This document shows positions 42,527-57,926 of a stretch of 64,000 bases of DNA, one piece after another. Every line of letters begins with the position of its first letter. The stretch's first letter is position 1. Made by a program: the position numbers and the translations under genes. The notes beneath the pieces are model-generated. The model did no database searches. It saw only the letters and a program-made list of their open reading frames with translations, and was not told the origin of the DNA. Source of the stretch: an uncultured Eubacteriales bacterium (GTDB lineage Bacteria > Bacillota > Clostridia > RGIG6154); assembly GCA_964492155.1 (NCBI GenBank), contig CAZBJD010000001.1:5729-69728 (forward strand). The letters run 5' to 3'.

Positions 42527-44839
42527 TTGATTATTTATGATATACCTGTACTTCCTTTGAGAGGAATTGTTGTTTTTCCCGGAATTCAGATACATTTTGA
42601 CGTTGAAAGAAAATCAACCATAGCTGCTATCAAAGAAGCGTTGAAAAATGAACAAATGGTTTTTTTAGTATCACAGAAAGATCCGGTCGTAGATAAACCT
42701 CTTTCCGATGATATATATTCCTGTGGTACTTTAGCAAAAATTTCGCATTTTCTCAAATCGTCAGAAAATACATATCGTGTTGTTGTAACCAGCTTATACA
42801 GAGTAAATGCCACTGATATAAAAAACACCAAAGGATTTTTAACATGTAATGTTGAAAAAACAAGCGTTACAAACGACTTTAACCTTGATATTCCTGAAGA
42901 TTTGCAAAAATACAGGGAATTAAGAAATAAATCTTATTTGTATTTCACTACTGCTAACAACAATGTACCGAATGTGGTGGCTAATTCATTTGACTCACAT
43001 AAGCCTTTGTTAAATATATGCGATAATATCAGTTCAAATCTTGTTATAGAGCACAATGAACTGCAGTCACTTCTGGATATTACAGATGTTAGAGAATTGT
43101 TTGGCAAGTTGATTGCTTTTTTAGACAGAGAAATCAGAATTAATGAAATTGAGTCGGAAATCCAAGGTAAAGTTAAACAAAAAATTGATAAAAATCAAAG
43201 AGAATATTATTTAAATGAACAGTTGAAAACAATCAAAAACGAGCTTGGGGATGCCGAAGATTTTGATAGCATATGTGATGAGTATTATGATAAAATCATT
43301 AATTTAAAATTGCCTGAAATCAGTGAAAAAAAATTAATTAAAGAAATAGACAGACTCAGCAATATGAATCTTCATTCCTCGGAAGCCGGAGTGATTATAT
43401 CTTATCTTGATTTAGTTTTGGATTTACCGTGGAATTATTCTACGAATGATAATCTTGATGTGAACAATGCAAAGAATATTCTTGATGAACATCATTTTGG
43501 TTTAAATGATGTTAAAGAGAGAATTTTAGAGTATATTGCAGTCAGACAACTTGGTGGAATTGGGAATGGAAATATAATATGTCTCGTGGGACCTCCCGGT
43601 GTAGGTAAAACTACTATTGCGGAATCTTTGGCAGCGGCACTTGGAAGAGTATACACAAGAATTTCATTGGGCGGTCTTAAGGATGAAAGTGAAATTCGCG
43701 GTCACAGGAAGACGTATATTGGAGCTATGCCCGGACGTATAATTAACGCATTTAAGCAAACTGAAGTTAACAATCCGTTAATTTTACTTGATGAAATCGA
43801 TAAAATTGCTTCTGATTTCAGAGGTGATCCGTCGTCTGCATTGCTTGAAGTTCTTGATAATGGACAAAACAAGGAATTTAAAGATAATTACCTGGAAATT
43901 CCTTTTGATATTTCTAATGCAATTTTTATCGCTACAGCTAATGATGTTTCATCTATTCCTTCGGCATTGATTGACAGAATGGACATTATTTCAATTCCCG
44001 GATATACTTTCGAAGAAAAATTGCAAATTGCAAAGCAGCACTTAATTCCCAATGAAATTTTCAAACATGCTATAAAAGGTGTATCTTTTGCAGATGACGC
44101 TTTGGAAAAAATAATACTTTCTTACACCAGAGAAGCAGGTGTTAGAAATCTCGACAGATGCATTCAAAAGATATGTCGTAAATGTGCGGTAAAAATCGTT
44201 GAAAGCAATTCAAAAAGGACAAAAATTACTGCAAATACTGTTAAAAAGTATTTGGGAACAGAGGCATATTCTAATTCTGACGTTTTATCATTAGATAAGT
44301 GCGGAATAGTAACAGGTCTTGCCTGGACACAATATGGCGGCGAGGTTCTTAATATTGAAGCAGTTTTGATGGAAGGCAAAGGGAAATTACAATTAACCGG
44401 CAATTTGGGTGAGGTAATGAAAGAATCAGCACAGATTGCTTTCTCATATGTTAAGTCCAACTGCAAAAAATATGGAATTGATATATCTCAAATTAATGAA
44501 AAAGATGTGCACATACACGTTCCTGAAGGTGCTGTACCCAAAGATGGACCATCCGCAGGCGTCACTATTGTTACTGCATTGATATCCGCTTTTACAGGTA
44601 AGCAGTTTAAACAAGGATTTGCTATGACCGGAGAGGTTTCTCTGACAGGGAAAGTTCTTCCTATTGGCGGATTAAGGGAAAAAAGTTTAGCGGCACTCCA
44701 AAATAATATTAACACTGTACTTATACCTTATGGTAATAAACGTAATCTTAATGATGTATCGGAAACCGTAAAACAAAAAATTAAATTTATTACTGTTAAT
44801 GATGTATCTGAGATTATAAAAATTGCGTTAAATTCATAA
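42527..44839 (+). CDS. lon: ATP-dependent Lon protease.
   Basis: GPPGVGKTT Walker A and the PKDGPSAGVTI catalytic Ser. TTG start. Confidence 0.9.
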   Translation: MIIYDIPVLPLRGIVVFPGIQIHFDVERKSTIAAIKEALKNEQMVFLVSQKDPVVDKPLSDDIYSCGTLAKISHFLKSSENTYRVVVTSLYRVNATDIKNTKGFLTCNVEKTSVTNDFNLDIPEDLQKYRELRNKSYLYFTTANNNVPNVVANSFDSHKPLLNICDNISSNLVIEHNELQSLLDITDVRELFGKLIAFLDREIRINEIESEIQGKVKQKIDKNQREYYLNEQLKTIKNELGDAEDFDSICDEYYDKIINLKLPEISEKKLIKEIDRLSNMNLHSSEAGVIISYLDLVLDLPWNYSTNDNLDVNNAKNILDEHHFGLNDVKERILEYIAVRQLGGIGNGNIICLVGPPGVGKTTIAESLAAALGRVYTRISLGGLKDESEIRGHRKTYIGAMPGRIINAFKQTEVNNPLILLDEIDKIASDFRGDPSSALLEVLDNGQNKEFKDNYLEIPFDISNAIFIATANDVSSIPSALIDRMDIISIPGYTFEEKLQIAKQHLIPNEIFKHAIKGVSFADDALEKIILSYTREAGVRNLDRCIQKICRKCAVKIVESNSKRTKITANTVKKYLGTEAYSNSDVLSLDKCGIVTGLAWTQYGGEVLNIEAVLMEGKGKLQLTGNLGEVMKESAQIAFSYVKSNCKKYGIDISQINEKDVHIHVPEGAVPKDGPSAGVTIVTALISAFTGKQFKQGFAMTGEVSLTGKVLPIGGLREKSLAALQNNINTVLIPYGNKRNLNDVSETVKQKIKFITVNDVSEIIKIALNS

Positions 44840-44858
44840 ATGGATTGGAGGTAATTAT

Positions 44859-45437
44859 GTGAATTTTCATTTAGCTCAATTTATTGTATCTGCTGTAAAA
44901 GATTCTCAATATCCCGTTGGGAATTTACCTGAAATAGCTATGGTTGGGCGTTCAAATGTTGGCAAATCTTCTTTAATTAACAAAGTTTTAAACAGGAAAA
45001 ATTTTGCAAGAACCAGTTCCAAACCCGGAAAAACTGCAACAATTAATTTTTACAATATAGATAAGAAATTAAACATTGTTGATTTGCCCGGATATGGATA
45101 TGCAAAAGTTTCCAAAAATGAACAAGCGGCATGGGCTGAAATGATTAACTATTATCTCGAAAATCGTCCCCAATTAAAAACAATTTTCTTACTGATTGAT
45201 GCACGGCATCTGCCTACAGATGATGATTTTATGATGTTGGAATGGATTGAACATTATAACATTGATTATTTTGTAATTGCTACCAAAACCGACAAACTGA
45301 AACCTTCACAAAAAAAGCAACAACTTGACGATATCTTTAACGCTTTAGGCGTAGAAGAAAGCAAATTTATCCCATTTTCCGCGGAAAATGGGGAAAACAA
45401 AGATAAAATTCTTTCAATTTTTTCTTCATACGAATAG
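44859..45437 (+). CDS. engB: Ribosome-biogenesis GTPase YsxC/EngB.
   Basis: GRSNVGKSSLIN. GTG start after GGAGGT. Conserved lon-ysxC arrangement. Confidence 0.9.
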   Translation: MNFHLAQFIVSAVKDSQYPVGNLPEIAMVGRSNVGKSSLINKVLNRKNFARTSSKPGKTATINFYNIDKKLNIVDLPGYGYAKVSKNEQAAWAEMINYYLENRPQLKTIFLLIDARHLPTDDDFMMLEWIEHYNIDYFVIATKTDKLKPSQKKQQLDDIFNALGVEESKFIPFSAENGENKDKILSIFSSYE

Positions 45438-45458
45438 ATTGCATATTGAGGTGATATT

Positions 45459-46109
45459 ATGAATTCAAACAAATTTTTTGTATATACTGTTGGATTAATC
45501 TTTCTTATTGCAGGTTTAGGCACAATTTTGGAAATGCTCAGCATTCCATTTTCTTCTATTATTTTGCTTTTAATCGGTGCTGCTTTTCTATGTTGTTACT
45601 ATAAATTCAATAATAATGTTTTTAAGTATTTATCTTGCTTTTTTATTCCTACCGGCATTTCATATTTAATAATTTCTGCGTTTAACGTTGTTGGTGGTGC
45701 TAACTTCCTTTTAATCTATTTTGCATTGGCGTGTGCCTTTTTACTTCTGTATCTTACTTCAAAACGGAAATTATTCATCTATATTTCTGTTGCTATCGCT
45801 TTTTTTGCACTGCATGTATTTACTGCAGCAACATCTTCGATGAGCGAACTACTAATCGGGTATGACTGCTTTTACATTGGAATTTTAGCTGTTATTGTAT
45901 TTATATTTGAAAATAAAAATTTAGGATATTTTCCTATATGGATATCAATAATTGCTTATTTATGCGGAATTTTAAACTTTTTAAGTTTTTATAATATTAT
46001 TGCTCCCGTGATTTTCAAACTATCTGTTTCACTTGTTTTGCTGTTAACCGGAGCCTCAATTATTTTATTTAACTTTTTAAAGTCCAGAAATCACCAAAAG
46101 GAGAATTAA
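45459..46109 (+). CDS. Polytopic membrane protein of unknown function.
   Basis: 216 aa with 6-7 predicted transmembrane helices. Confidence 0.45.
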   Translation: MNSNKFFVYTVGLIFLIAGLGTILEMLSIPFSSIILLLIGAAFLCCYYKFNNNVFKYLSCFFIPTGISYLIISAFNVVGGANFLLIYFALACAFLLLYLTSKRKLFIYISVAIAFFALHVFTAATSSMSELLIGYDCFYIGILAVIVFIFENKNLGYFPIWISIIAYLCGILNFLSFYNIIAPVIFKLSVSLVLLLTGASIILFNFLKSRNHQKEN

Positions 46110-46110
46110 A

Positions 46111-47379
46111 ATGAGCAAACAAATTAAAATTTCAGCCCCAAAAGGTACACATGATATTTTACCTGCTGATGTACATATTTGGCAATATGTAGAAAAATGT
46201 ATATATGACGTATGCAAAAATTTCGGTTATAATGAAATCAGATTTCCTGTTTTTGAACAAACTGATTTGTTTAACAGAGGAGTAGGAGATACTACGGATG
46301 TTGTGCAGAAGGAGATGTACACTTTTACAGATAAGGGTGACAGAAGTATCACACTTCGTCCTGAAGGTACTGCTTCAACTGTAAGAAGTTATCTTGAAAA
46401 CAATCTATACAATGCACCTGCTCCGGTCAAACTTTTCTATATTATTACTTGCTATCGCTACGAAAGACCTCAGGCGGGCAGATTTCGTGAATTCAGACAG
46501 TTTGGGGTGGAAAATTTTGGCAGTAGCAATCCCCGTACTGACACTGAAGTAATTTCTCTTGCTATGAGTTTATTAAAAAAACTTGGAATTGAAGATTTAA
46601 CACTTTATATAAATTCTATCGGTTGTGCAGAATGTCGTAAAAAATACAATGAACTTTTAAAAACGTACTTGTCGGAACATAGCAGTGAGCTTTGCGAGTT
46701 ATGCAATGACCGCATTGGACGAAATCCTCTCCGAGTGTTGGATTGTAAGAATGGCGATTGCAGAAATGTTATAAATTATGCTCCGACTGTTGATACGGTA
46801 TTGTGCGACGAATGCAAAAATCACTTTGAAACTTTAAAAAGTTCTTTAACTGATATTGGAATTGATTTTGTTGTAGACAATACCTTGGTTAGAGGTCTTG
46901 ATTATTACACAAAAACCGTATTTGAAATCAAATCTTCTGATCTTGGTGCACAATCAACTGTTTGCGGCGGCGGTAGATATGATGGCTTGGTGGAACAATT
47001 AGGTGGTTCATCAACTCCCGGAATTGGTTTTTCTGTTGGATTAGAACGTCTGATAGATGTTTTAACCAAAAAAGGTCTTTTACCTGAACCGCAGAATGAT
47101 ATTACGTTGTTTGTAGCTTCTATTGGTGAACTCGCTACTAATTTTGCATTTAAATTAGTTACACAATTAAGAAGATTAGGTGTTTCCGCTGAATTTGATC
47201 ATTTAAATCGTTCCGTAAAAGCACAATTAAAATATGCAGATAAATTAAATGCTAAATATAGCTTGGTACTTGGTGATGACGAAATTAAATCAGGTGTCGC
47301 TGTTATTAAAAATATGTATAGCGGTGAAAACAAAGAAATTAAGATAGATGAACTATCTGCCGAAACTTTAAACTTTTAA
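46111..47379 (+). CDS. hisS: Histidine--tRNA ligase.
   Basis: Class II aaRS motifs, HisRS N-terminal …GTHDILP…RPEGTAS…. Confidence 0.9.
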   Translation: MSKQIKISAPKGTHDILPADVHIWQYVEKCIYDVCKNFGYNEIRFPVFEQTDLFNRGVGDTTDVVQKEMYTFTDKGDRSITLRPEGTASTVRSYLENNLYNAPAPVKLFYIITCYRYERPQAGRFREFRQFGVENFGSSNPRTDTEVISLAMSLLKKLGIEDLTLYINSIGCAECRKKYNELLKTYLSEHSSELCELCNDRIGRNPLRVLDCKNGDCRNVINYAPTVDTVLCDECKNHFETLKSSLTDIGIDFVVDNTLVRGLDYYTKTVFEIKSSDLGAQSTVCGGGRYDGLVEQLGGSSTPGIGFSVGLERLIDVLTKKGLLPEPQNDITLFVASIGELATNFAFKLVTQLRRLGVSAEFDHLNRSVKAQLKYADKLNAKYSLVLGDDEIKSGVAVIKNMYSGENKEIKIDELSAETLNF

Positions 47380-47394
47380 TTGTTGGAGGTTTTT

Positions 47395-47730
47395 ATGAAA
47401 ATTACAGAGGTTAAAGAAATTTTAAATGCAGAAATTGTATGTGGCGAGGAGTTAATTGATGAAGAAGTATTTTCTGCATGCGGATGTGATCTTATGAGTG
47501 ATGTTCTTGCTTTTGTCAAAAATCAAGGGTTATTACTTACCGGATTAAATAATCCGCAGGTTGTCAGGACAGCTTTTATGATGGATATGAAAGCAATTGT
47601 GTTTGTCCGTGGTAAAAATCCTGACGATGAAGTAGTACAATTGGCAAAACTTAAAGATATTATCTTATTAAAGACTGATGAACGGTTATATGCAGCTTGC
47701 GGAAAGCTTTATAATGCAGGATTAGTTTAA
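47395..47730 (+). CDS. Small DRTGG-like domain protein.
   Basis: About 112 aa. ATG after TTGGAGG. Paralogous in outline to 49489-49818. Confidence 0.5.
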   Translation: MKITEVKEILNAEIVCGEELIDEEVFSACGCDLMSDVLAFVKNQGLLLTGLNNPQVVRTAFMMDMKAIVFVRGKNPDDEVVQLAKLKDIILLKTDERLYAACGKLYNAGLV

Positions 47731-47757
47731 TATCGTTGTCAGGGAAGAGGGATAAAT

Positions 47758-48189
47758 TTGGAAAACTCAAATTTGAAACTACACTATGATATTGATAAAA
47801 AAGATTTTATAAATGCTGGCGAGGCATCAAGTTCCGTGAAAAAAGTATTGAGGAAATTAGGTGTAAATCCTGATTGCATCCGAAATCTTGCCATTGCTAT
47901 GTATGAGGCTGAAATTAATATGGTTATTCATGCCAACGGCGGAACTATCGATGTTGAAATTTCCCCGGAATGCATCCATGTTGTTTTGGCAGATAGCGGT
48001 CCCGGGATATCCGATCTTAACCTTGCTATGCAGGAGGGATACTCTACTGCAGGCGATAGCGTTAGAGAGTTGGGTTTTGGAGCCGGGATGGGGTTGCCCA
48101 ATATTAAAAAATACGCTGATGATTTAAAAATTACTACTGAAATTGGTGTTGGTACCACTGTTGAAATCAAAGTAAACATTCCTTCTTAA
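47758..48189 (+). CDS. GHKL ATPase-like protein, anti-sigma regulatory factor (serine kinase) type.
   Basis: HATPase_c N/G-box-like (…EAEINMVIHANGG…DSGPGI…GFGAGMGLPNI…). No HisKA domain. Confidence 0.6.
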   Translation: MENSNLKLHYDIDKKDFINAGEASSSVKKVLRKLGVNPDCIRNLAIAMYEAEINMVIHANGGTIDVEISPECIHVVLADSGPGISDLNLAMQEGYSTAGDSVRELGFGAGMGLPNIKKYADDLKITTEIGVGTTVEIKVNIPS

Positions 48190-48200
48190 GATAGGAGAAT

Positions 48201-49475
48201 ATGATTATGAATAAGTATTTTCACTCTGTTACTTTGGATAAGGACTTATGCAAAGGATGTACTAATTGTCTGAAACATTGTCCAACTGAAGCGATTAGAA
48301 TCAGGAATTCTAAAGCTAAAATTATAAAGGAACGTTGTATAGATTGCGGTGAGTGTATCCGCATTTGTCCATATCATGCTAAGAAGGCGATTACTGATGA
48401 GTATGATAAGATTTTTGATTATAAATACAAAATTGCTTTGCCTGCACCGGCTTTTTACGCTCAATACAATGAAATTAATATTGAAATTTTACTTTATGCT
48501 CTTGAACTTCTTGGGTTCGACGAAGTCAGGGAGGTTACACTCGGTGCAGACATTATTTCTTCCAAAACGAATGATTTATTGGCTAAAGACAGTTCTGTTA
48601 AGCCGCTGATAAGTTCATCATGTCCGGCAATCGTCAGACTTATCAAAATACGATTTCCAAGTTTAATTGATAATATTTTGCCACTGCAAAGTCCTTTAGA
48701 CATTGTTGCCAAAAAGGCAAAATTTGAAAGTGCTGAACGGCTTAAACTTGCCCCTGGCGATGTTGGAGTTTTTTTCATTTCGCCATGTGCCGCAAAAGTT
48801 ACTAGTTGTAAAGCTCCGATTGGCATTTCCGAATCTTATGTAGACGGGGTTATTTCTATCGCCGACATTGTTCGTGAAATCGCACCTTTTTATTCAAAAT
48901 TAACAACAAGTTCTCATTCTACAATTTCAACCTCGTCGGGGATTGGCTGGGCAAAAAGCGGGGGTGAAAGTCAAAAACTTAGCTCATATAACAGTATTGC
49001 AGTTGATGGCGTAAAGAACGTTATCAAAGTTCTCGAAGATTTAGAGGATGATAAAATTGTCGACATTGACTTCATAGAATGTTGTGCGTGTACCGGAGGA
49101 TGTGTTGGTGGACCATTGACTGTAAATAATACATACGTTGCCCAGGCAAATATAAAGAAACTTATGAAAAAATACGAACGTACGCCATATATTGATGATG
49201 TTAATATTGATGATATTTCGCTTACATCACAAATCGAATGTGAACCAATTTTAAAATTGAGTTCTAACATGGCGGAGTCAATAAAAATGATGGATGAGAT
49301 CGACAAACTTATAGATAAACTTCCAGGGCTTGATTGTGGCTCTTGCGGAGCACCGTCATGTACGGCTTTGGCTGAAGATGGAGTTAAAGGTTTTGCCAAA
49401 GAATCAGACTGTATATTTATTTATAAGGAAAAATTAAAATTTATAATGAACGAAATGAATCATCTTGAAGAATAA
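48201..49475 (+). CDS. [FeFe]-hydrogenase-like protein with altered H-cluster motifs. Putative sensory or regulatory.
   Basis: Two CxxCxxCxxxCP motifs. H-domain L1 SSSCP, L2 SPCAAK and L3 ECCACTGGCVGG. C-terminal CGSCGAPSC. Confidence 0.7.
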   Translation: MIMNKYFHSVTLDKDLCKGCTNCLKHCPTEAIRIRNSKAKIIKERCIDCGECIRICPYHAKKAITDEYDKIFDYKYKIALPAPAFYAQYNEINIEILLYALELLGFDEVREVTLGADIISSKTNDLLAKDSSVKPLISSSCPAIVRLIKIRFPSLIDNILPLQSPLDIVAKKAKFESAERLKLAPGDVGVFFISPCAAKVTSCKAPIGISESYVDGVISIADIVREIAPFYSKLTTSSHSTISTSSGIGWAKSGGESQKLSSYNSIAVDGVKNVIKVLEDLEDDKIVDIDFIECCACTGGCVGGPLTVNNTYVAQANIKKLMKKYERTPYIDDVNIDDISLTSQIECEPILKLSSNMAESIKMMDEIDKLIDKLPGLDCGSCGAPSCTALAEDGVKGFAKESDCIFIYKEKLKFIMNEMNHLEE

Positions 49476-49488
49476 GGGAGTATAGCGT

Positions 49489-49818
49489 ATGCTTGTTAAA
49501 GATATTATTGAAAAGCTTGGTGCACAGATTGTTAATGAAGGTGATTTACTGCAACGTGATATTACCGGATGTTACATAGGCGATCTGCTCAGTTGGGTTA
49601 TGGCAAATGCCAGAGAAGGTGATATTTGGCTTACAATTATGTCGAATGTCAATGTTGTTGCTGTTGCAACACTCACTGATATATCTTGTGTTTTAATGTG
49701 CGAAAACGTCGTGCCTGATGAAGATTGTCTTATTCGTGCCAGGGAACAGGGGATTACAATTTTAAAAACTCCGTTATCTGCATATCAGGCTGCGGTTATA
49801 CTTGGTAATATATTATGA
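49489..49818 (+). CDS. Second small DRTGG-like protein.
   Basis: 109 aa. Overlaps the PHP gene start (ATGA). Confidence 0.45.
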   Translation: MLVKDIIEKLGAQIVNEGDLLQRDITGCYIGDLLSWVMANAREGDIWLTIMSNVNVVAVATLTDISCVLMCENVVPDEDCLIRAREQGITILKTPLSAYQAAVILGNIL

Positions 49819-50507
49819 AACTTTATTATGATTTACATATACATTCTGCGTTGTCCCCCTGCGGAGATAACGATATGACACCTAACAACATTGTCAATAT
49901 GTCCATTCTCAAAGGGTTGGATGTTATTGCTGTTTCTGACCACAACAGTATTAAAAATTTGCACGCTGTTTTTGAGGTTGCAAAAAACACCAACTTAATT
50001 GTAATTCCCGCTATGGAAATTGAAACTTCAGAAAATGTGCATATGTTAACTTTATTTCGAGATATGGATGCTGCAGAAAATGCTTATAACAGGATATATA
50101 CATTGCTGCCGGATATTAAAAACGAAAAAGAAATATTCGGTGAACAGCTTGTTATTAACTCAAAGGATGAAATTGTCGATTACGAAGAAAAGCTTTTGGT
50201 TAATTCAGCCAATATTGATATTGCTGAATTAGTCGAGTTAGTAAATAGTGTTGACGGTGTGGTAATACCTGCTCACGTCGACAGAAGTTCTTATAGCATA
50301 TTATCAAATCTCGGCACCGTTCCTGACCTGGGATTTAGACGCATAGAACTGTCGAAAAATGCTGATGAGAAAATGTACGAATATCTTGGCTATGAGTTTA
50401 TAAGAAATTCAGACGCACACTATTTGTATGACATTTTTGAGGCTGAAAACTATTTGGAATGTACGGAAAAATCAATAAATTCGTTTTTTGACGCTATTTT
50501 AAAATGA
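49815..50507 (+). CDS. PHP-domain phosphoesterase.
   Basis: YYDLHIHSALSPCGD…VIAVSDHN PHP motifs. Confidence 0.7.
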   Translation: MKLYYDLHIHSALSPCGDNDMTPNNIVNMSILKGLDVIAVSDHNSIKNLHAVFEVAKNTNLIVIPAMEIETSENVHMLTLFRDMDAAENAYNRIYTLLPDIKNEKEIFGEQLVINSKDEIVDYEEKLLVNSANIDIAELVELVNSVDGVVIPAHVDRSSYSILSNLGTVPDLGFRRIELSKNADEKMYEYLGYEFIRNSDAHYLYDIFEAENYLECTEKSINSFFDAILK

Positions 50508-50535
50508 TAAAAACATTATATTTTTGCTTTTTGTA

Positions 50536-50561
50536 GATTTTTGAATAATTATGTGATATAA
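50536..50561 (+). promoter_or_regulatory. Extended -10 promoter for the hydrogenase operon.
   Basis: TGaTATAAT (50553-50561) with a weak -35. Confidence 0.35.
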
Positions 50562-50606
50562 TCTAGCTTAGACAATTATGTAAATATAATTTAAGGAGGC
50601 ATAAAG

Positions 50607-51101
50607 ATGTCAGATAAAAAACTACCTGCTTTTCAGGGGACTAAAGAGCAGGAAGCACAGCTTATGGAGGTTATTAATAAACATAAGCAGTCTAAGGGAG
50701 CCCTTATCCCGGTTTTACATGAAGCTCAGGAAATATATGGATATCTTCCGATTGAGGTTCAAACAATCATTGCAGAGGAACTGGATTTGCCGCTTGCAGA
50801 AGTATATGGTGTTGTTACATTTTATACTCAGTTCTCGCTTTATCCGAAGGGACAGTACAAAATTGCTGTCTGTCTTGGAACAGCATGCTATGTAAAAGGT
50901 TCAGGCGATCTCTTGGATAAAATCAAAGAAATCCTTAGAATTGACGTAGGGGAATGTACTCCTGACGGTAAATTTTCACTTGAAGCTACTCGCTGTATTG
51001 GTGCATGCGGCTTAGCTCCTGTATTAACTGTAAATGATGATGTTTATGGCAGACTTGTTGTTGATGATATTCCGGGCATTATTGAAAAGTATCAGAATTA
51101 A
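50607..51101 (+). CDS. hydC: NuoE-like [2Fe-2S] subunit of the bifurcating hydrogenase.
   Basis: Thioredoxin-like fold with the conserved Cys pattern (…CLGTACYVKG…CIGACGLAP…). Confidence 0.85.
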   Translation: MSDKKLPAFQGTKEQEAQLMEVINKHKQSKGALIPVLHEAQEIYGYLPIEVQTIIAEELDLPLAEVYGVVTFYTQFSLYPKGQYKIAVCLGTACYVKGSGDLLDKIKEILRIDVGECTPDGKFSLEATRCIGACGLAPVLTVNDDVYGRLVVDDIPGIIEKYQN

Positions 51102-51106
51102 TTAAA

Positions 51107-51649
51107 ATGAAAGAATTATCATTAAATATACTTGATATTGCGGAGAATTCTATAGCTGCTAATGCTACAATTGTCGAAATCAAGATATCCGAACAAGTGT
51201 CCGAAAACTTGCTTGTTATTACTATTTCAGATAACGGCAAAGGTATGAGTGAAGATTTCTTAAAAAACGTTACCGATCCTTTTTCCACCACCAGAAACAC
51301 AAGAAAAGTGGGAATGGGGATATCTTTGTTAAAACTCATAACTGAACAGTCCAACGGTACATTTAGTATATCGTCAAAAGTCGGTGAGGGGACTTGTGTT
51401 AAAGCTATGTTTCAATATAATCACATTGACAGACCTCCGCTCGGAAATATTGAACAAACAATATCTACGCTTGTTTCTTGTAATTTAAATGTTAATTTTG
51501 TTTATGAACACACTTTCAATGACAAAAAATTCACAATGAACACCAAAGAAATCGATGAAATTCTCCGGGGTATACCGCCTAATAATCCGGATGTTATATT
51601 GTGGATGCAAAGTTATATCAGGGAAGGAATTGATAGTATTTCTTTCTGA
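51107..51649 (+). CDS. Histidine-kinase-like ATPase (HATPase_c only) embedded in the hydrogenase operon.
   Basis: …ITISDNGKGM…GMGISLL… G-boxes with no phospho-acceptor domain. Confidence 0.7.
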   Translation: MKELSLNILDIAENSIAANATIVEIKISEQVSENLLVITISDNGKGMSEDFLKNVTDPFSTTRNTRKVGMGISLLKLITEQSNGTFSISSKVGEGTCVKAMFQYNHIDRPPLGNIEQTISTLVSCNLNVNFVYEHTFNDKKFTMNTKEIDEILRGIPPNNPDVILWMQSYIREGIDSISF

Positions 51650-51710
51650 AACCAATTTGTTAAATATTATTATGCTGAATGTTTTCGTTCGGCAAGATAG
51701 GAGTTTAAAT

Positions 51711-52082
51711 ATGAAAAGTTTAGCAGATTTAGAAGCGATTAGACAAAAAACAATAAATAGGGTTAATTTAAGAAATGAATCTGAAGACAGCACACGTATC
51801 GTCGTTGGTATGGCAACTTGCGGTATAGCTGCAGGTGCACGTCCTGTTATGCAGGCTTTTGTTGAAGAAATTAACAAAAGAAACTTATCAGACACATATG
51901 TAGCTCAGACAGGTTGCATTGGTCTTTGCAAGTACGAACCTATTGTTGAAGTATACACTTCTGGCAAAGAAAAAGTTACTTATGTTAAAGTAACTCCGGA
52001 AAAAGTAGCTAAAATCGTTGCAGAACATATTGTTAATGGTAAAGTTGTTGACGAATACACTATTGGCGCTGCTGAAAAGTAA
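51711..52082 (+). CDS. Thioredoxin-like [2Fe-2S] ferredoxin (HydD-like).
   Basis: Start at MKSLADL after AGGAG (ORF-track start 51555). …MATCGIAAGA…GCIGLCKYEP…. Confidence 0.7.
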   Translation: MKSLADLEAIRQKTINRVNLRNESEDSTRIVVGMATCGIAAGARPVMQAFVEEINKRNLSDTYVAQTGCIGLCKYEPIVEVYTSGKEKVTYVKVTPEKVAKIVAEHIVNGKVVDEYTIGAAEK

Positions 52083-52124
52083 TTTTACATAACGCTATTG
52101 GTGTGTTGAAATGGAGGAAAGAAA

Positions 52125-53915
52125 ATGGAACTTGTAAGATCTCATGTTTTGGTTTGCGGTGGTACCGGTTGTACATCTTCCGGATCTACACAAATCATTG
52201 ATGAATTTGAAAAACAACTTAAAAATTTTAATATTGATAACGAAGTTAAAGTTGTTAAAACTGGTTGCTTTGGTTTGTGTGCTTTAGGACCGATTGTTAT
52301 CATATATCCTGAAGGTTCATTTTATAGCATGGTTAAAACCGAAGATGTTGCTGAAATTGTTGAACAGCACTTACTTAAAGGTAAAATTGTTAAGAGATTG
52401 CTTTATAAAGAGACTATTGAAGAAGATAATATCAAGTCTCTTAATGAAGTTGATTTCTATAAAAAACAACTTCGTGTTGCTTTGAGAAATTGCGGTGTAA
52501 TTAATCCGGAAGATATTGATGAATATATTGCACAAGACGGTTATAAAGCACTTGGTAAGGTTCTTACCGAAATGACACCGGAAGAAGTTATTAATGTTGT
52601 AAAGGAATCCGGTTTGCGTGGCCGTGGAGGCGGTGGTTTCCCCACAGGTGTTAAATGGAGTTTTGCTGCACAACAAGTTAATGAACAAAAATATGTTCTT
52701 TGTAATGCCGACGAAGGTGACCCGGGTGCATTTATGGATAGATCTATTCTCGAAGGTGACCCTCACAGCTTAATTGAAGCTATGTCGATAGCAGGTTATG
52801 CAATTGGTGCTAATCAGGGTTATGTATACGTAAGAGCTGAATATCCGATCGCTGTGCACAGACTCAATGTTGCAATAAAGCAGGCTAGAGAATACGGTTT
52901 ACTTGGTAATAACATCTTTGGAACTGATTTTTCATTTGATCTTGAAATCCGTCTTGGTGCCGGTGCGTTTGTTTGTGGTGAAGAAACTGCTCTTATCACT
53001 TCTATTGAAGGACATAGAGGTGAACCTAGACCAAGACCGCCATTCCCGGCAGTTAAAGGTCTTTGGGGCAAGCCTTCAATTCTTAATAACGTTGAAACTT
53101 ATGCAAATATTCCTGTTATCTTCCTTAAAGGGGTAGATTGGTTTACTTCTATCGGTACAGAAAAGAGCAAAGGAACTAAAGTATTTGCCTTAGGTGGTAA
53201 GATTAACAATACCGGTTTGGTTGAAGTGCCAATGGGCACAACTTTAAGAGAAGTTGTATACGAAATTGGCGGTGGAATTCCTAACGGAAAGAAATTCAAA
53301 GCTGCTCAGACCGGCGGTCCCTCAGGCGGATGTATCCCTGCTGAACTAATCGATACACCTATCGATTATGATTCACTTATCAGCATTGGTTCTATGATGG
53401 GTTCAGGCGGACTTATCGTAATGGATGAAGATACCTGTATGGTTGATATTGCAAAATTCTTCCTTGAATTTACTGTTGATGAATCATGCGGTAAATGTGT
53501 TCCTTGTCGTATTGGTACAAAGAGAATGCTTGAAATTCTTACTAAAATTACTAACGGACAAGGTACTCTTGAAGATATCGATAAGTTGGAACAACTTTGT
53601 CTTTCAGTTAAGAGCAGTGCATTGTGCGGTCTTGGTCAGACAGCTCCAAACCCAATTTTAAGCACACTCAAATACTTCAGACATGAATATGAAGAACACG
53701 TTGTTGAGAAGAAATGCCGTGCAGGCGTTTGTAAGGCACTTCTCAGCTATGTAATTGATGCTGATAAATGTATTGGTTGCGGAATTTGTGCAAGAAATTG
53801 TCCTGTTTCTGCAATCACAGGAAAAATTAAAGAACCGTTTGTTATTGATACTGCTAAGTGCGTAAAATGCGGTCTTTGTGAAACAAAATGTCCTAAAAAG
53901 GCAATCAGCAAATAA
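52125..53915 (+). CDS. hydB: NuoF-like NADH/FMN-binding subunit with N-terminal and C-terminal Fe-S domains.
   Basis: GRGGGGFPTGVKW FMN site, NADH site, and C-terminal 2x[4Fe-4S] CxxCxxCxxxCP. Confidence 0.9.
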   Translation: MELVRSHVLVCGGTGCTSSGSTQIIDEFEKQLKNFNIDNEVKVVKTGCFGLCALGPIVIIYPEGSFYSMVKTEDVAEIVEQHLLKGKIVKRLLYKETIEEDNIKSLNEVDFYKKQLRVALRNCGVINPEDIDEYIAQDGYKALGKVLTEMTPEEVINVVKESGLRGRGGGGFPTGVKWSFAAQQVNEQKYVLCNADEGDPGAFMDRSILEGDPHSLIEAMSIAGYAIGANQGYVYVRAEYPIAVHRLNVAIKQAREYGLLGNNIFGTDFSFDLEIRLGAGAFVCGEETALITSIEGHRGEPRPRPPFPAVKGLWGKPSILNNVETYANIPVIFLKGVDWFTSIGTEKSKGTKVFALGGKINNTGLVEVPMGTTLREVVYEIGGGIPNGKKFKAAQTGGPSGGCIPAELIDTPIDYDSLISIGSMMGSGGLIVMDEDTCMVDIAKFFLEFTVDESCGKCVPCRIGTKRMLEILTKITNGQGTLEDIDKLEQLCLSVKSSALCGLGQTAPNPILSTLKYFRHEYEEHVVEKKCRAGVCKALLSYVIDADKCIGCGICARNCPVSAITGKIKEPFVIDTAKCVKCGLCETKCPKKAISK

Positions 53916-53931
53916 AGGAGGTAAGTTGATA

Positions 53932-55671
53932 ATGGAAAATGTTACTCTTAAAATTAATAATATAGAAGTCACAGTTCCTGCTGACTATACAATTTTACAG
54001 GCAGCAAGAAGCGCGAATATCGACATCCCTACGCTTTGCTACCTTGAAGGATTAAACAAACTCGGTTCTTGTCGTTTGTGCGTTGTTGAAATTAAAGGTG
54101 CAAGAGCTCTTCAGGCAGCTTGCGTATATCCAGTAGCAGAGGGAATAGAAGTATTCACAAATACTCCTGCTGTACGAAAAGCAAGAAAAGCTAATTTAGA
54201 GCTTATTCTTTCAAATCATGACAGAAAATGTCTCACTTGTACCAGAAACAGAAATTGTGAACTTCAGGCATTGGCTGATGAATTTGGCATTGAAGATTTA
54301 GGATTTACAGGTGAAAATGATCCGAAGCTTCCTATCGAAGATTCTTCAACATCATACATTCGCGATAACAACAAATGCGTGCTTTGCAGACGTTGTGTTG
54401 CAGCTTGTGATAATCAGGCAGTTTCAGTTATTTCATGCATAAACAGAGGTTTTGCAACAACTGTTGGTACTGCTTTTGAAAAACCTGTTTCAGAAGTTGC
54501 ATGTATTTTCTGCGGACAGTGTATCAATGCTTGTCCCACAGGTGCTTTAACAGAAAAAAGTCATATTCCTCAGGTTTTGGAAGCCATTGATAATGCTGAA
54601 AAACATGTTGTTGTGCAGACTGCTCCGGCAGTTCGTGCAGCTCTTGGCGAGGAGTTCGGATTACCGATGGGTACCCCTGTTACAGGTAAAATGGTAACCG
54701 CTCTCAAGATTCTTGGTTTTGATAAAGTTTTCGACACAGACACTGCTGCTGACCTTACAATTATGGAAGAGGGAACAGAGTTTATTGAAAGATTTACTAA
54801 ACAGGAAAAATTACCGCTTATTACTTCATGCAGCCCCGGTTGGGTCAAGTATTGCGAACACTTTTTCCCAGAATTTACTGACAATCTTTCTTCAGCAAAA
54901 TCACCTATGGAAATGTTTGGCGCTGTAATCAAATCATATTATGCCGAAAAGAATAATATTGACAAAAAAGATATTTATTCTGTTGCAGTTATGCCATGTA
55001 CTTCTAAGAAATACGAAATTCAGAGAGAAGAAATGTCAAGCAGTGGTGCAGCTGATATTGATGCTTCACTTACAACACGTGAGCTTGCCAGAATGATTAA
55101 ACAGGCAGGTATCAATTTTGCCGATCTTCCTGATTCGGAATTTGACGATCCATTTGGCAATGCTACAGGTGCCGGAGTAATTTTTGGTGCTACTGGTGGT
55201 GTTATGGAAGCTGCAATCAGAACCGTTTACGAAGTTTTGGAAGGCAAATCGCTTGAAAATCTTGAACTTGCTCCAATTCGTGGAATGGACGGAATTAAAG
55301 AAGCAACTCTTACTATAAAAGGTAATGATGTTAAGATTGCTGTAGTTCATGGCACAAAAAATGCAAAAGAATTGCTTACAAAGATTAAAGCAGGTGAAGC
55401 AAAATATGATTTCATTGAAATTATGGCTTGCCCGGGCGGTTGTGTAAATGGTGGCGGTCAGCCAATTGTTCCCGCCAAAGAACAAGCTTTAATTGATGTT
55501 AGGGTAGAGAGAGCAAAAGCACTTTATGCCGAAGACAGAAATTCTGCATTGAGAAAATCTCACGAAAATCCTGCAATCAAGAAGCTTTATGAAGAATACT
55601 TTGAAAAACCATGTTCACATAAAGCTCATGAACTTTTGCATACTCATTATACAAAGAGAAGCAAATATTAA
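53932..55671 (+). CDS. hydA: [FeFe]-hydrogenase catalytic subunit, with a NuoG-like N-terminal region.
   Basis: L2 MPCTSKKYE, L3 EIMACPGGCVNGGGQP, L1 reads TSCSPGW. Start at MENVTL (ORF-track start 53878). Confidence 0.9.
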   Translation: MENVTLKINNIEVTVPADYTILQAARSANIDIPTLCYLEGLNKLGSCRLCVVEIKGARALQAACVYPVAEGIEVFTNTPAVRKARKANLELILSNHDRKCLTCTRNRNCELQALADEFGIEDLGFTGENDPKLPIEDSSTSYIRDNNKCVLCRRCVAACDNQAVSVISCINRGFATTVGTAFEKPVSEVACIFCGQCINACPTGALTEKSHIPQVLEAIDNAEKHVVVQTAPAVRAALGEEFGLPMGTPVTGKMVTALKILGFDKVFDTDTAADLTIMEEGTEFIERFTKQEKLPLITSCSPGWVKYCEHFFPEFTDNLSSAKSPMEMFGAVIKSYYAEKNNIDKKDIYSVAVMPCTSKKYEIQREEMSSSGAADIDASLTTRELARMIKQAGINFADLPDSEFDDPFGNATGAGVIFGATGGVMEAAIRTVYEVLEGKSLENLELAPIRGMDGIKEATLTIKGNDVKIAVVHGTKNAKELLTKIKAGEAKYDFIEIMACPGGCVNGGGQPIVPAKEQALIDVRVERAKALYAEDRNSALRKSHENPAIKKLYEEYFEKPCSHKAHELLHTHYTKRSKY

Positions 55672-55805: not shown

Positions 55806-56012
55806 ATGAAAGAAGGATTGCATCCTGATTATCAGACTGCTACTGTGAAATGCGCTTGTGGTGAAACATTTGAAACCAGATCTACTAAAAAAGATATTTC
55901 TATAGAAATTTGTTCAAAATGTCATCCGTTCTATACCGGTAAACAGAAGATTGTTGATGCTGGTGGACGTGTTGATAAATTCAGAAAGAAATTCAATTTG
56001 GAGTCTAAATAA
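55806..56012 (+). CDS. rpmE: 50S ribosomal protein L31.
   Basis: MKEGLHPDY…CxxC…C.KCHPFYTG. Start after GAGGTG (ORF-track start 55788). Confidence 0.9.
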
Positions 56013-56039
56013 TCCATTTCATTTTAAGTTGTAGCTATG

Positions 56040-56084
56040 CACCTGTTTGAAGTTTAATAACTTTAACAGGTGCTTTAAATTTAT
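56040..56084 (+). terminator. Intrinsic terminator after rpmE.
   Basis: gcacctgtt/aacaggtgc followed by a T-rich tail. Confidence 0.6.
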
Positions 56085-56155
56085 AGGGGATGACTTATTT
56101 TTAAACACGAAGTCGTCAATGTTTACAATTGTGTATTGTTAATAAGTCAAAATGT

Positions 56156-56207
56156 CCAACAGAAATTTTTTTGGCATAGATTTGATTGTTTTTAAAATTT
56201 CTGTTGG
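56156..56207. repeat. 14-bp perfect inverted repeat with a 24-nt spacer.
   Basis: ccaacagaaatttt … aaaatttctgttgg. Confidence 0.6.
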
Positions 56208-56268
56208 CTCCGACAGGGATTAATAATATAGTATATTTTTTATTCAGAATTTATGTGGGGTGTAGAGG

Positions 56269-56297
56269 TTGACATTTGATAAAATTTGTGATACAAT
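56269..56297 (+). promoter_or_regulatory. Near-consensus sigmaA promoter for the recombinase gene.
   Basis: TTGACA - 17 nt - TGaTACAAT. Confidence 0.5.
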
Positions 56298-56338
56298 TAT
56301 ACAAAATAAAAATTTTGTATAATTGAGGTGAGGGTTAA

Positions 56339-57310: not shown

Positions 57311-57313
57311 ATC

Positions 57314-57349
57314 AAGGAGATGATTTTTATAGTCATCTCCCTTTTTTTC
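57314..57349. terminator. Bidirectional intrinsic terminator between the recombinase and amidase genes.
   Basis: ggagatga/tcatctcc stem followed by T7. Confidence 0.65.
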
Positions 57350-57353
57350 AGGG

Positions 57354-57926
57354 CTACAATCGATTGTATCCAAAGAAATTCAATATGCCGTCGTAAATTG
57401 CAGCTGCAAATTCATATTGGTCATTTTTAAGTTTTTCTGCATCTCCCGGATTAGTTATAAATGCAAGCTCAATTAACATTGCCGGCATTTGTGTCCTTCT
57501 CAACACGAAAAATGTTTTATTAATTTTAACACCATTGTTCTTAGTTCCAAGTTGAGTGGTGATTTGTGTTAAAATGTTTTCTGCCATATAATAAATCGGT
57601 GTTCCTTCGCTATATACATATATTTCTGTACCGTTAAATACAGGATTTTCAGCAGCGTTAGCGTGTATACTGATAAAGTAGTCCGCCCCCCAGGAATTCG
57701 CCATATTGACTCTTTCTTGAAGACTGCTTGTATTGTTATATCCCAACGAATCTGTAGGTGTATTTCTTGATGTTATTGCATCAAACCGATAATCACTGTT
57801 AAGTAAATCTCTTAAAAAAATACCGACATTGTATGTTACATCTTGTTCTCTGAGCCCGTTACCTTCTGCGCCGGCATTAACATTTTCAGGATTATGCCCC
57901 TGATCAATAAAAATTTTAATTGCCAT
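57354..57926 (-). CDS. N-acetylmuramoyl-L-alanine amidase (Amidase_3), CwlD-like.
   Basis: …IFIDQGHNP…ISIHANA… Zn-ligand blocks. Start at MAIKIF after GGGAGAG (the ORF track extends to 57968). Confidence 0.75.
   Translation of the reverse strand: MAIKIFIDQGHNPENVNAGAEGNGLREQDVTYNVGIFLRDLLNSDYRFDAITSRNTPTDSLGYNNTSSLQERVNMANSWGADYFISIHANAAENPVFNGTEIYVYSEGTPIYYMAENILTQITTQLGTKNNGVKINKTFFVLRRTQMPAMLIELAFITNPGDAEKLKNDQYEFAAAIYDGILNFFGYNRL

What the first reader, a model, noticed from the sequence alone, without database searches (positions are those of the whole stretch)
47395..50507. Five-gene putative H2/redox-sensing module immediately upstream of the bifurcating hydrogenase operon
The block between hisS and hydC contains five genes.
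- A DRTGG-like small protein.
- A GHKL ATPase of the anti-sigma-factor serine-kinase type, with no phospho-acceptor domain.
- A 424-aa protein with two ferredoxin CxxCxxCxxxCP motifs plus an [FeFe]-hydrogenase H-domain. All three H-cluster motifs are recognisable but altered: L1 SSSCP versus TSCCP, L2 SPCAAK versus MPCxxK, L3 ECCACTGGCVGG. An extra C-terminal CGSCGAPSC Cys cluster follows.
- A second DRTGG-like protein.
- A PHP-domain phosphoesterase.

The gene overlaps (ATGA) suggest one transcription unit.

The architecture (sensor hydrogenase, a partner-switch-like kinase, a phosphoesterase) looks like a signal-transduction device reporting H2 or redox state to hydrogenase expression. I know of no experimental characterisation of such a module.
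Basis: partly seen in the sequence, partly recalled or inferred. Interest (0 to 1): 0.75.

Follow-up and report, generated by a model that had tools for sequence, protein, structure and literature searches.

The report
Group D sensory hydrogenase (HydS) cassette
The five genes are a real, widely conserved cassette built around a slow "sensor-type" iron hydrogenase (Group D HydS) next to the main hydrogen-producing enzyme; the hydrogenase class is already known and studied in vitro, but how its four partner proteins pass on a signal is still unknown.

Summary
Between hisS and hydC lie five co-directional genes: DRTGG protein, SpoIIAB-like GHKL ATPase, a 422-aa [FeFe]-hydrogenase-like protein, a second DRTGG protein and a PHP phosphoesterase. 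All pass Pfam thresholds.

The hydrogenase is a textbook Group D (M2e) "HydS". It has two N-terminal 4Fe-4S motifs and an intact set of H-cluster cysteines. The proton-relay Cys is lost (SSSCP) and Met353 is Ser (SPCAAK). It carries the C-terminal Cx2Cx4Cx16C cluster and has no PAS domain. In-frame stretches are about 50-60% identical to TamHydS, which has been characterised spectroscopically and electrochemically since 2019-2020. The claim of "no experimental characterisation" is therefore only true for the partner proteins and for in vivo function.

In 65 of 68 evaluable genomes the same five-gene order recurs. It sits beside hydC-GHKL-fdx-hydB-hydA in 51 loci, and no transcription factor is conserved nearby.

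The partner-switch reading is only partly supported. The GHKL protein resembles SpoIIAB. The DRTGG proteins are not STAS-fold. The PHP protein is structurally closest to EndoQ/RNase AM-type nucleases, not to protein phosphatases.

Verdict: a new member of a known kind, with a useful lead on unexplored signalling partners.

The parts
47395..47730 (+). DRTGG1: a 111-aa stand-alone DRTGG-domain protein and the most conserved member of the cassette. It is frequently translationally coupled to GHKL1 in other genomes.
47758..48189 (+). GHKL1: a 143-aa SpoIIAB/RsbW-like GHKL ATPase (anti-sigma-factor serine-kinase type). It has no DHp or phospho-acceptor domain.
   Evidence: HATPase_c_2, E = 3.9e-12. 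TIGR01925 SpoIIAB scores E = 1.8e-14 but is below the curated cutoff. PDB SpoIIAB 1til scores E = 7.5e-6 and RsbW 0.02. The N-box (E50/E52/N54/H58), G1 box (D79-G81-G83) and G2 box (G106-G112) are invariant in 21 orthologs.
48207..49475 (+). HydS: a 422-aa Group D (M2e) putative sensory [FeFe]-hydrogenase (alternative ATG at 48201). It has two N-terminal [4Fe-4S] motifs, an H-domain and a C-terminal Cx2Cx4Cx16C cluster.
   Evidence: Fer4 x2, Fe_hyd_lg_C (E = 1e-34) and PF04060 FeS. The cluster cysteines C15/18/21/25, C44/47/50/54, C139, C194, C295, C299 and C377/380/385/402 are invariant, as are D376, D401 and E254. tblastn to the TamHydS coding sequence gives 48-63% identity. No PAS domain is present.
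49489..49818 (+). DRTGG2: a 109-aa paralog of DRTGG1, translationally coupled to PHP through an ATGA overlap.
   Evidence: PF07085, E = 5.6e-8. hhalign against DRTGG1 gives probability 99.1% at 26% identity. The ATGA overlap is at 49815-49818. An exact 4-bp overlap occurs in 18 of 75 loci.
49815..50507 (+). PHP: a 230-aa PHP-family metal-dependent phosphoesterase of the EndoQ / TM0559 / RNase AM structural branch. Its metal-binding site is complete.
50508..50606 (+). A 99-bp spacer before hydC. It holds an extended -10-like box (TGaTATAAT, 50554-50562), a second TATAAT (50585-50590) and an imperfect 16/17-bp direct repeat (50547-50562 and 50574-50590). This is the likely hydCBA promoter and operator region.
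   Evidence: Read directly from the sequence. No Rex box is present here. No function has been tested.
50607..55671 (+). The presumed target operon: hydC (50607-51101), orphan GHKL2 ATPase (51107-51649), 2Fe-2S ferredoxin/HydD (51711-52082), hydB (52125-53915) and hydA (53932-55671). Together these encode the electron-bifurcating [FeFe]-hydrogenase.
   Evidence: Pfam and NCBIfam hits. HydA scores 909 bits to NF040763 against a cutoff of 765. The same operon follows the cassette in 46 loci and lies divergent to it in 5.

Best explanation
The block is the conserved five-gene cassette of a Group D (M2e) "HydS" hydrogenase. It most likely acts as a cytoplasmic H2 (redox-poise) sensor tied to the electron-bifurcating HydABC hydrogenase encoded immediately downstream.

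Proposed sequence of events:
1. HydS keeps every ligand needed for an H-cluster and three accessory [4Fe-4S] clusters. It lacks the Group A proton-relay cysteine (Ser138 here) and Met353 (Ser192). It retains the Group D glutamate relay (E254).
2. By analogy with the characterised ortholog TamHydS, it should react with H2 slowly but with high affinity. It should hold a reduced H-cluster state and change conformation when H2 is present.
3. That state is probably read through protein-protein contacts by two tightly co-encoded pairs. One pair is DRTGG1 with a SpoIIAB-like GHKL ATPase/kinase. The other is DRTGG2 with an EndoQ/RNase AM-like PHP phosphodiesterase.
4. These pairs would turn the signal into an ATP-dependent and phosphoester-dependent output that sets the amount or activity of HydABC, and possibly of other redox pathways.

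What is shown and what is inferred:
- Shown here: the identity and integrity of all domains, membership of Group D, and conservation of the cassette and its linkage to hydCBA.
- Shown elsewhere, for the ortholog only: H2 reactivity, slow catalysis and an H2-induced structural change.
- Inferred: every step after H2 binding, including who binds whom, whether GHKL1 phosphorylates anything, what PHP hydrolyses and what the output target is.
For: Domain content and motif integrity.

Group D hallmarks as defined in Land 2020 and the JACS 2025 paper:
- C299 is not conserved.
- M353 is replaced by Ser/Thr.
- The C-terminal motif is Cx2Cx4Cx16C.
- There is no PAS domain.
- The E252 relay is present (E254 here).
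- The gene lies upstream of the trimeric bifurcating hydrogenase.

Direct similarity to the TamHydS coding sequence.

TamHydS biochemistry: high H2 affinity, low rates, a stabilised Hred state and an H2-induced secondary-structure change.

Synteny:
- 65 of 68 evaluable loci carry all five genes in the same order.
- hydCBA is adjacent in 51 loci: 46 downstream on the same strand and 5 divergent.
- Junctions are tight and often overlap by 4 bp at DRTGG1/GHKL1 and DRTGG2/PHP.
- Locus-tag offsets in six model thermophiles and clostridia fit the same ten-gene layout.

Catalytic residues of GHKL1 and PHP are invariant, so both are probably active enzymes.

The related Group C sensor HfsB/HydS has genetic evidence for a regulatory role.
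Against: - No in vivo evidence for sensing exists for any Group D enzyme in the searched literature.
- TamHydS still catalyses reversible H+/H2 interconversion.
- Its C-terminal cluster, the presumed signalling cluster, is not reduced by H2.
- No DNA-binding protein, sigma factor or response regulator is conserved next to the cassette, so the output is unknown.
- About 14 of roughly 65 loci with sufficient flanking sequence have no hydABC within 8-10 kb.
- In this window the cassette follows hisS after 15 bp with no promoter or terminator hit, so its own expression looks constitutive and housekeeping-linked.
- The PHP protein looks like a nuclease or nucleotide phosphodiesterase, which does not fit a simple phospho-relay.
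Confidence: 0.6

Rival explanations
1. A true partner-switching module. GHKL1 is a serine kinase/anti-factor that phosphorylates a DRTGG protein acting as antagonist. PHP is the matching protein phosphatase. HydS biases the switch, releasing an unlinked sigma or transcription factor that drives hydCBA.
For: - GHKL1's closest characterised relatives are SpoIIAB and RsbW, and it has an intact ATP site.
- There are two small co-encoded partner proteins, with Ser35 and Thr49 invariant in both paralogs.
- PHP-family protein phosphatases do exist (CpsB/YwqE), and they appear as distant structural matches.
- Group C sensory hydrogenases are linked to Ser/Thr kinases and phosphatases.
Against: - Ser35 and Thr49 sit in the family-wide D..TGG signature, so they are not specific evidence of a phospho-site.
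- No PP2C domain, STAS domain or sigma factor occurs in the cassette or is conserved beside it.
Confidence: 0.15
2. A nucleic-acid- or nucleotide-directed output. The PHP protein is a nuclease or nucleotide phosphodiesterase acting on the hyd mRNA leader, nanoRNA/pAp or a nucleotide messenger. DRTGG2, HydS and the GHKL ATPase gate its activity, so control is post-transcriptional or works through a small nucleotide rather than a phospho-relay.
For: - The best structural and profile matches of PHP are EndoQ, TM0559, RNase AM, pAp-type phosphatases and PolC proofreading PHP domains.
- The best NCBIfam hit is the PHP nuclease head of TrlF.
- The DRTGG fold matches the UDP-binding N-domains of MurE/MurF and the HPrK N-domain.
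- PHP is the last gene before the hydC leader and is translationally coupled to DRTGG2.
- The absence of any conserved DNA-binding protein fits a non-transcriptional output.
Against: - Fold similarity within the PHP superfamily does not define the substrate.
- The protein lacks EndoQ's zinc-finger and C-terminal DNA-binding domains (230 aa against 400 aa).
- No RNA element was detected in the hydC leader by Rfam.
- There is no experimental hint of this in the literature.
Confidence: 0.15
3. HydS is simply a low-rate metabolic hydrogenase, for example a ferredoxin-linked safety valve or an extra subunit of HydABC. The four neighbours regulate or assemble it rather than receive a signal from it.
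For: - TamHydS catalyses reversible H+/H2 conversion close to the thermodynamic potential.
- All cluster ligands are intact.
- The N-terminal 2x[4Fe-4S] domain is a normal electron-transfer relay.
Against: - Rates are very low, and the proton pathway and active-site pocket are systematically altered across the whole group.
- The hydrogenase is invariably packaged with ATPase, DRTGG and PHP genes rather than with redox partners.
- Purified HydABC(D) complexes and the solved HydABC structures do not list such a subunit (PDB chain lists).
- NCBIfam scores are far below the cutoffs for catalytic groups A and B.
Confidence: 0.08

Closest known systems
TamHydS, the Group D (M2e) putative sensory [FeFe]-hydrogenase of Thermoanaerobacter mathranii (Land 2019/2020; Cabotaje 2023, 2025; Schumann 2026)
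   Same: - Same domain architecture: 2x[4Fe-4S] F-domain, H-domain and a C-terminal Cx2Cx4Cx16C cluster, with no PAS domain.
- Same altered motifs: xSxCP without the relay Cys, SPCAAK, and the Asp residues flanking the C-terminal cluster cysteines.
- The E252-equivalent glutamate is present.
- In-frame segments are 48-63% identical.
- Both are encoded upstream of a trimeric bifurcating hydrogenase and beside a histidine-kinase-like ATPase.
   Different: - The window protein has Ser where TamHydS has A137 (CpI C299). Only 1 of about 80 related loci shares this.
- It has Cys-Cys instead of Ala-Leu before the L3 cysteine.
- It comes from an uncultured mesophile-like, low-GC Clostridia lineage rather than a thermophile.
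- Nothing is known experimentally about this protein itself.
Group C (M2f) sensory hydrogenases: TmHydS, R. albus HydS and Thermoanaerobacterium HfsB with HfsA/C/D
   Same: - Slow, H-cluster-containing sensor-type enzymes that lack the relay cysteine and carry the same C-terminal 4-Cys cluster.
- They are encoded next to catalytic hydrogenases and next to kinase/phosphatase-type genes.
- hfsB deletion has a regulatory phenotype.
   Different: - Group C enzymes carry a C-terminal PAS domain. Their partners are Ser/Thr kinase and serine phosphatase-type proteins.
- The window protein has no PAS domain. Its partners are two DRTGG proteins, a SpoIIAB-like GHKL protein and an EndoQ-like PHP enzyme.
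SpoIIAB-SpoIIAA-SpoIIE and RsbW-RsbV-RsbU partner-switching modules
   Same: Both include a small stand-alone GHKL protein of the anti-sigma/serine-kinase type, co-encoded with small partner proteins and a phosphoesterase.
   Different: The window cassette has no STAS antagonist, no PP2C phosphatase and no sigma factor. The partner fold is DRTGG, and the phosphoesterase is a nuclease-like PHP enzyme.
The regulatory [NiFe]-hydrogenase system HoxBC-HoxJ-HoxA of Cupriavidus necator (Ralstonia eutropha)
   Same: The logic is the same: a low-activity hydrogenase is used as an H2 sensor to control catalytic hydrogenase genes (described in PMC5707799).
   Different: The metal centre and proteins are unrelated. 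That system has a PAS-containing histidine kinase and a response regulator, neither of which is present here.

Membership tests
Group D (M2e) [FeFe]-hydrogenase (HydS) | [quoted passage not shown] | tested here: met
   C15/18/21/25-P26 and C44/47/50/54-P55 are invariant in the alignment. Fer4 Pfam hits.
Group D (M2e) [FeFe]-hydrogenase (HydS) | H-domain with the four H-cluster cysteine ligands and the L2 lysine | tested here: met
   Fe_hyd_lg_C, E = 1e-34. C139, C194, K197, C295 and C299 are invariant.
Group D (M2e) [FeFe]-hydrogenase (HydS) | The proton-relay Cys (CpI C299) is absent, Met353 is replaced by Ser/Thr, and the Group D glutamate relay (TamHydS E252) is present | tested here: met
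   SSSCP (Ser138), SPCAAK (Ser192) and E254 invariant.
Group D (M2e) [FeFe]-hydrogenase (HydS) | C-terminal Cx2Cx4Cx16C cluster domain, with no PAS domain after it | tested here: met
   C377-x2-C380-x4-C385-x16-C402. PF04060 FeS at residues 374-406, and no PAS hit. The protein ends 20 residues after C402.
Group D (M2e) [FeFe]-hydrogenase (HydS) | Close sequence relationship to the reference enzyme TamHydS rather than to groups A or B | tested here: met
   tblastn to the TamHydS coding sequence (an OCR copy with frame errors) gives 48-63% identity in in-frame segments. Identity to Thermoanaerobacteraceae and Thermoanaerobacterium orthologs is 52-53%. NCBIfam models for groups A and B1 score far below their cutoffs. 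No formal phylogeny with Group C sequences was built.
Group D (M2e) [FeFe]-hydrogenase (HydS) | Slow, high-affinity H2 turnover, a stabilised Hred state and unusual CO/O2 reactivity | not testable with these tools
   These properties are known only for TamHydS.
Partner-switching module (SpoIIAB/RsbW type) | GHKL anti-sigma factor / serine kinase | tested here: inconclusive
   The best matches are SpoIIAB and RsbW, but the scores are far below the NCBIfam equivalog cutoffs (53.8 against 135). ATP-binding motifs are intact. Kinase activity is untested.
Partner-switching module (SpoIIAB/RsbW type) | STAS-domain antagonist that is phosphorylated on Ser/Thr | tested here: not met
   There is no STAS Pfam hit in the cassette. 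The DRTGG1 model matches AF_1212, the CBS-PPase DRTGG domain and the HPrK N-domain, with no STAS protein in the top 60.
Partner-switching module (SpoIIAB/RsbW type) | PP2C-type phosphatase and a cognate sigma factor in or beside the operon | tested here: not met
   The phosphoesterase is PHP. No further gene family is conserved around the cassette in 80 loci.
Group C (M2f) sensory [FeFe]-hydrogenase | PAS domain fused after the C-terminal cluster | tested here: not met
   No PAS hit, and the protein ends shortly after the cluster.
Two-component sensor histidine kinase | DHp/HisKA phospho-acceptor domain and a cognate response regulator | tested here: not met
   GHKL1 (143 aa) and GHKL2 (180 aa) carry only the ATPase domain. 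No response regulator is conserved nearby.
PHP-family protein-tyrosine phosphatases (CpsB/YwqE) | Closest structural and sequence relationship within the PHP superfamily | tested here: not met

The most novel reading that the evidence does not exclude
The DRTGG-GHKL-HydS-DRTGG-PHP cassette could be a previously undescribed type of signal-transduction device. In it, an H2-reactive metalloprotein would control two DRTGG-adaptor/enzyme pairs: a SpoIIAB-like ATPase and an EndoQ/RNase AM-like phosphodiesterase. The output would be nucleic-acid- or nucleotide-directed, or would act directly on the HydABC enzyme. It would not be a phospho-relay to a transcription factor. This would explain why no DNA-binding protein is ever co-encoded.
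Probability: 0.25. Interest if true: 0.75.

Novelty: new member of a known kind. Interest (0 to 1): 0.4.

Why it matters
How fermentative anaerobes sense H2 partial pressure and re-route electrons between H2, ethanol, lactate and acetate is an open question. It has consequences for gut and rumen ecology and for biofuel strains.

Group D HydS enzymes are the leading candidates for such a sensor in many Clostridia, yet current work treats the hydrogenase in isolation. This analysis shows three things:
- HydS almost never travels alone. Four specific partner genes accompany it in 65 of 68 genomes examined.
- Two of those partners form tightly coupled pairs with DRTGG proteins.
- The phosphoesterase looks like a nuclease rather than a protein phosphatase.

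That gives concrete, testable candidates for the missing signal-transduction step. The window itself adds only one more example, with a Ser instead of Ala at the relay position.

Tried and rejected
- **Rex control.** I searched the window for a Rex operator (TTGTKAAnnnnTTMACAA, up to 2 mismatches). There is none near the cassette or hydC. Rex-like boxes do occur upstream of hydC in 12 of 46 other loci and upstream of DRTGG1 in 9 of 73. Rex is therefore not a universal partner.
- **RNA elements.** An Rfam gathering-threshold scan of the whole window found only two tRNAs. There is no riboswitch or leader RNA near the cassette.
- **Defence system.** This idea was prompted by the PHP hits to TrlF and Ppl. 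PADLOC gave no hit for any cassette protein, so it was rejected.
- **A conserved output regulator.** All-versus-all clustering of ORFs from 80 loci found nothing conserved beyond the ten cassette and hyd genes. The next most frequent family is present in only 10 loci. The hisS adjacency is not conserved either.
- **Genes downstream of cassettes that lack hydCBA.** They are unrelated: GGDEF-EAL, LacI, glycosidases, anaerobic RNR and others.
- **Literature on the partner proteins.** Searches for DRTGG plus hydrogenase, HydS plus PHP domain, and the locus tags Cthe_0335, Athe_1292, Csac_1857, TTE0887, Teth39_1463 and Cphy_3798 returned only genome-survey mentions.
- **Sources not held.** Calusinska 2010, the original M2e description, is not in the library.
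- **TamHydS comparison.** The TamHydS coding sequence could only be recovered as an OCR copy with frame errors. The comparison is therefore by segments.

Full report
**1. Observation**

The region 47395-50507 contains five co-directional ORFs between hisS (46111-47379) and hydC (50607-51101).
- DRTGG: 31.4 and 33.0 bits against a cutoff of 25.2.
- HATPase_c_2: E = 3.9e-12.
- Two Fer4 domains, Fe_hyd_lg_C (E = 1e-34) and the PF04060 "FeS" domain (E = 6e-10).
- PHP: 34.3 bits against a cutoff of 26.4.

Independent gene calls on identical metagenome contigs give the same genes, with lengths of 111, 143, 422, 109 and 230 aa.

Two details need correcting. The hydrogenase most likely starts at ATG 48207, giving 422 aa. 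Only the DRTGG2/PHP junction is an ATGA overlap. The other junctions are gaps of 27, 17 and 13 bp.

DRTGG1 starts 15 bp after the hisS stop, behind a GGAGG site. The simple scans find no promoter or terminator there. In this genome the cassette therefore probably rides on the lon-engB-hisS transcript.

**2. What the 422-aa protein is**

It has the architecture that defines the M2e subclass, or Group D, of [FeFe]-hydrogenases:
- two N-terminal CxxCxxCxxxCP motifs;
- an H-domain whose four cluster cysteines and L2 lysine are intact (C139, C194, K197, C295, C299);
- a C-terminal Cx2Cx4Cx16C motif (C377, C380, C385, C402), with the aspartates that flank the first and last cysteines;
- no PAS domain.

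The motif changes are the ones described for Group D. The proton-relay cysteine (CpI C299) is missing; it is Ser138 here and Ala137 in TamHydS. Met353 is serine (SPCAAK). The glutamate proposed as the Group D proton relay (TamHydS E252) is present and invariant (E254).

A tblastn comparison was run against the TamHydS coding sequence printed in the supplement of Schumann et al. 2026. That text is an OCR copy with frame errors. In-frame segments are 48-63% identical, with the motifs in register. NCBIfam models for catalytic groups A and B score far below their cutoffs. No Group C or D structure exists in the PDB, and the nearest solved chains are Group A enzymes.

**3. What is already known**

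Carere et al. 2012 list M2e "monomeric sensory" hydrogenases five locus tags upstream of trimeric bifurcating hydrogenases. The organisms are C. bescii, C. saccharolyticus, C. subterraneus, C. phytofermentans, C. thermocellum and T. pseudethanolicus. They note the proximity to protein kinases. The tag offsets fit the ten-gene layout seen here; this is my inference.

TamHydS was screened in 2019 and purified in 2020. It shows low turnover, high H2 affinity, a stabilised Hred state and unusual CO/O2 reactivity. Its authors proposed a sensory role, noting only a flanking "histidine kinase-like ATPase" and a putative regulator.

Later work mapped an alternative proton pathway and converted the enzyme towards Group A behaviour. 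It also showed that the C-terminal cluster is not reduced by H2, although H2 induces a secondary-structure change.

It appears correct for the other four proteins and for in vivo function. Searches linking DRTGG or PHP to these hydrogenases, and searches for the locus tags, returned nothing functional.

**4. Conservation of the cassette**

They come from Oscillospiraceae, Christensenella, Thermoanaerobacterium, Thermoanaerobacteraceae, Coprothermobacterota and other lineages, at 45-55% identity. I searched their ORFs with phmmer, using the window proteins as queries.
- Of 68 loci with enough flanking sequence, 65 carry DRTGG1-GHKL1-HydS-DRTGG2-PHP in that order. One further failure, L021, is an ORF-calling artefact.
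- hydC-GHKL2-fdx-hydB-hydA follows on the same strand in 46 loci and lies divergently upstream in 5.
- About 14 loci have no hydABC within 8-10 kb, and their neighbours are unrelated.
- Clustering all ORFs shows no other family shared by more than 10 loci. No transcription factor, sigma factor or response regulator is part of the system.
- The DRTGG1/GHKL1 and DRTGG2/PHP junctions are the tightest, with median spacings of -4 and -1 bp. Exact 4-bp overlaps occur in 21 of 74 and 18 of 75 loci. This suggests two stoichiometric DRTGG-enzyme pairs flanking HydS.
- DRTGG1 is the most conserved component: 65-75% identity where HydS is 50-57%.

**5. The partner proteins**

*GHKL1.* It is closest to SpoIIAB (NCBIfam E = 1.8e-14; PDB 1til E = 7.5e-6) and to RsbW. 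Its N, G1 and G2 boxes are invariant. It is probably an active ATPase or kinase, although it scores far below the equivalog cutoffs.

**6. Interpretation**

The best-supported reading is the field's own hypothesis, now with more anatomy. HydS would be an H2 (redox-poise) sensor. Its state would be read by co-encoded proteins that tune the bifurcating hydrogenase, and perhaps other redox pathways.
- Shown here: the domain and motif facts and the synteny.
- Known from TamHydS only: the H2 chemistry.
- Inferred: everything downstream of H2 binding.

It fails for the antagonist fold, the phosphatase class and the sigma factor, so the cassette should not be filed as a partner-switching module.

The nuclease-like PHP enzyme and the lack of any DNA-binding partner leave room for a different kind of output. 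It could be RNA- or nucleotide-directed, or could act directly on the enzyme. I rate this at about 0.25.

A purely metabolic role for HydS is unlikely. The active-site changes are group-wide, and the gene is invariably packaged with signalling-type genes.

**7. Verdict**

The finding is real and correctly read in outline, but it belongs to a known and actively studied class: a new member of a known kind. Its value is as a pointer. The four partner genes are conserved and uncharacterised, and they are the obvious next experimental targets for the unanswered question of how Group D hydrogenases signal. Interest is 0.4.

Noticed in passing
window 51107-51649 (+): A second orphan GHKL ATPase (180 aa) lies inside the hydCBA operon, between hydC and the 2Fe-2S ferredoxin. 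It has an HATPase_c domain only, with no DHp domain, plus a C-terminal extension of about 75 aa with no Pfam hit. It is conserved at this position in 42 related loci, so the whole ten-gene region carries two GHKL proteins and two DRTGG proteins.
   Followed up: partly
window 50547-50590 (+): The 99-bp PHP-hydC spacer holds an imperfect direct repeat, AATTATGTGATATAAT and AATTATGTAAATATAAT, with starts 27 bp apart. Each copy ends in a -10-like TATAAT, and the first has an extended-10 TG. These may be tandem promoters or an operator. Conservation was not tested.
   Followed up: no
window 54790-54820 (HydA) and HydA genes of 44 related loci: The catalytic HydA has the L1 motif TSCSP rather than the textbook TSCCP. 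All 44 HydA genes in the related loci share it, as does the solved bifurcating HydA1 (7q4v), whereas CpI has TSCCP. It is a clade-wide feature, not an error in this window.
   Followed up: partly
window 48618-48620 and 49080-49085 (HydS codons 138, 292-293): This HydS has Ser at the relay position, where TamHydS and nearly all relatives have Ala (SSSCP against SSACP; only 1 of about 80 loci shares it). It also has Cys-Cys before the L3 cysteine (ECCAC against EALAC or ELNAC). A hydroxyl at this position could alter proton coupling.
   Followed up: partly
window 42527-50507 (+): lon, engB, a 216-aa membrane protein, hisS and the cassette are co-directional with gaps of 21 bp or less. The simple scans find no terminator or promoter before DRTGG1, so the sensor cassette may be expressed with housekeeping genes here. 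The hisS adjacency is not conserved in other species.
   Followed up: partly
L006, L008, L016, L034 and others (PHP-hydC spacers); L011, L024, L030 (upstream of DRTGG1): Rex-type boxes (TTGTTAAnnnnTTAACAA, up to 3 mismatches) occur upstream of hydC in 12 of 46 loci and upstream of the cassette in 9 of 73. None is found in this window. Redox (Rex) control and the HydS cassette are therefore combined in some lineages only.
   Followed up: partly
L016, L024, L030, L034 (about 400-7600); L071 8443-8877: In four loci a second hydrogenase operon lies just upstream of the cassette: hydC, a long HydB of about 1,040-1,080 aa, and hydA. Where downstream sequence is available (L016, L030, L034), the cassette sits between two hydrogenase operons. 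L024 ends at HydS, so this cannot be seen there. L071 has an extra GHKL1-like gene after PHP.
   Followed up: no
window 30792-30865 and 30951-31024 (-): Two tRNA genes lie 86 bp apart and have identical Rfam scores. They are probably a tandem duplicate.
   Followed up: no
window about 56000-58000: The GC-skew sign flips from positive to negative here. This coincides with a switch in gene strand and with a XerC-like tyrosine recombinase ORF (56339-57310) followed by an amidase-like ORF on the minus strand.
   Followed up: no
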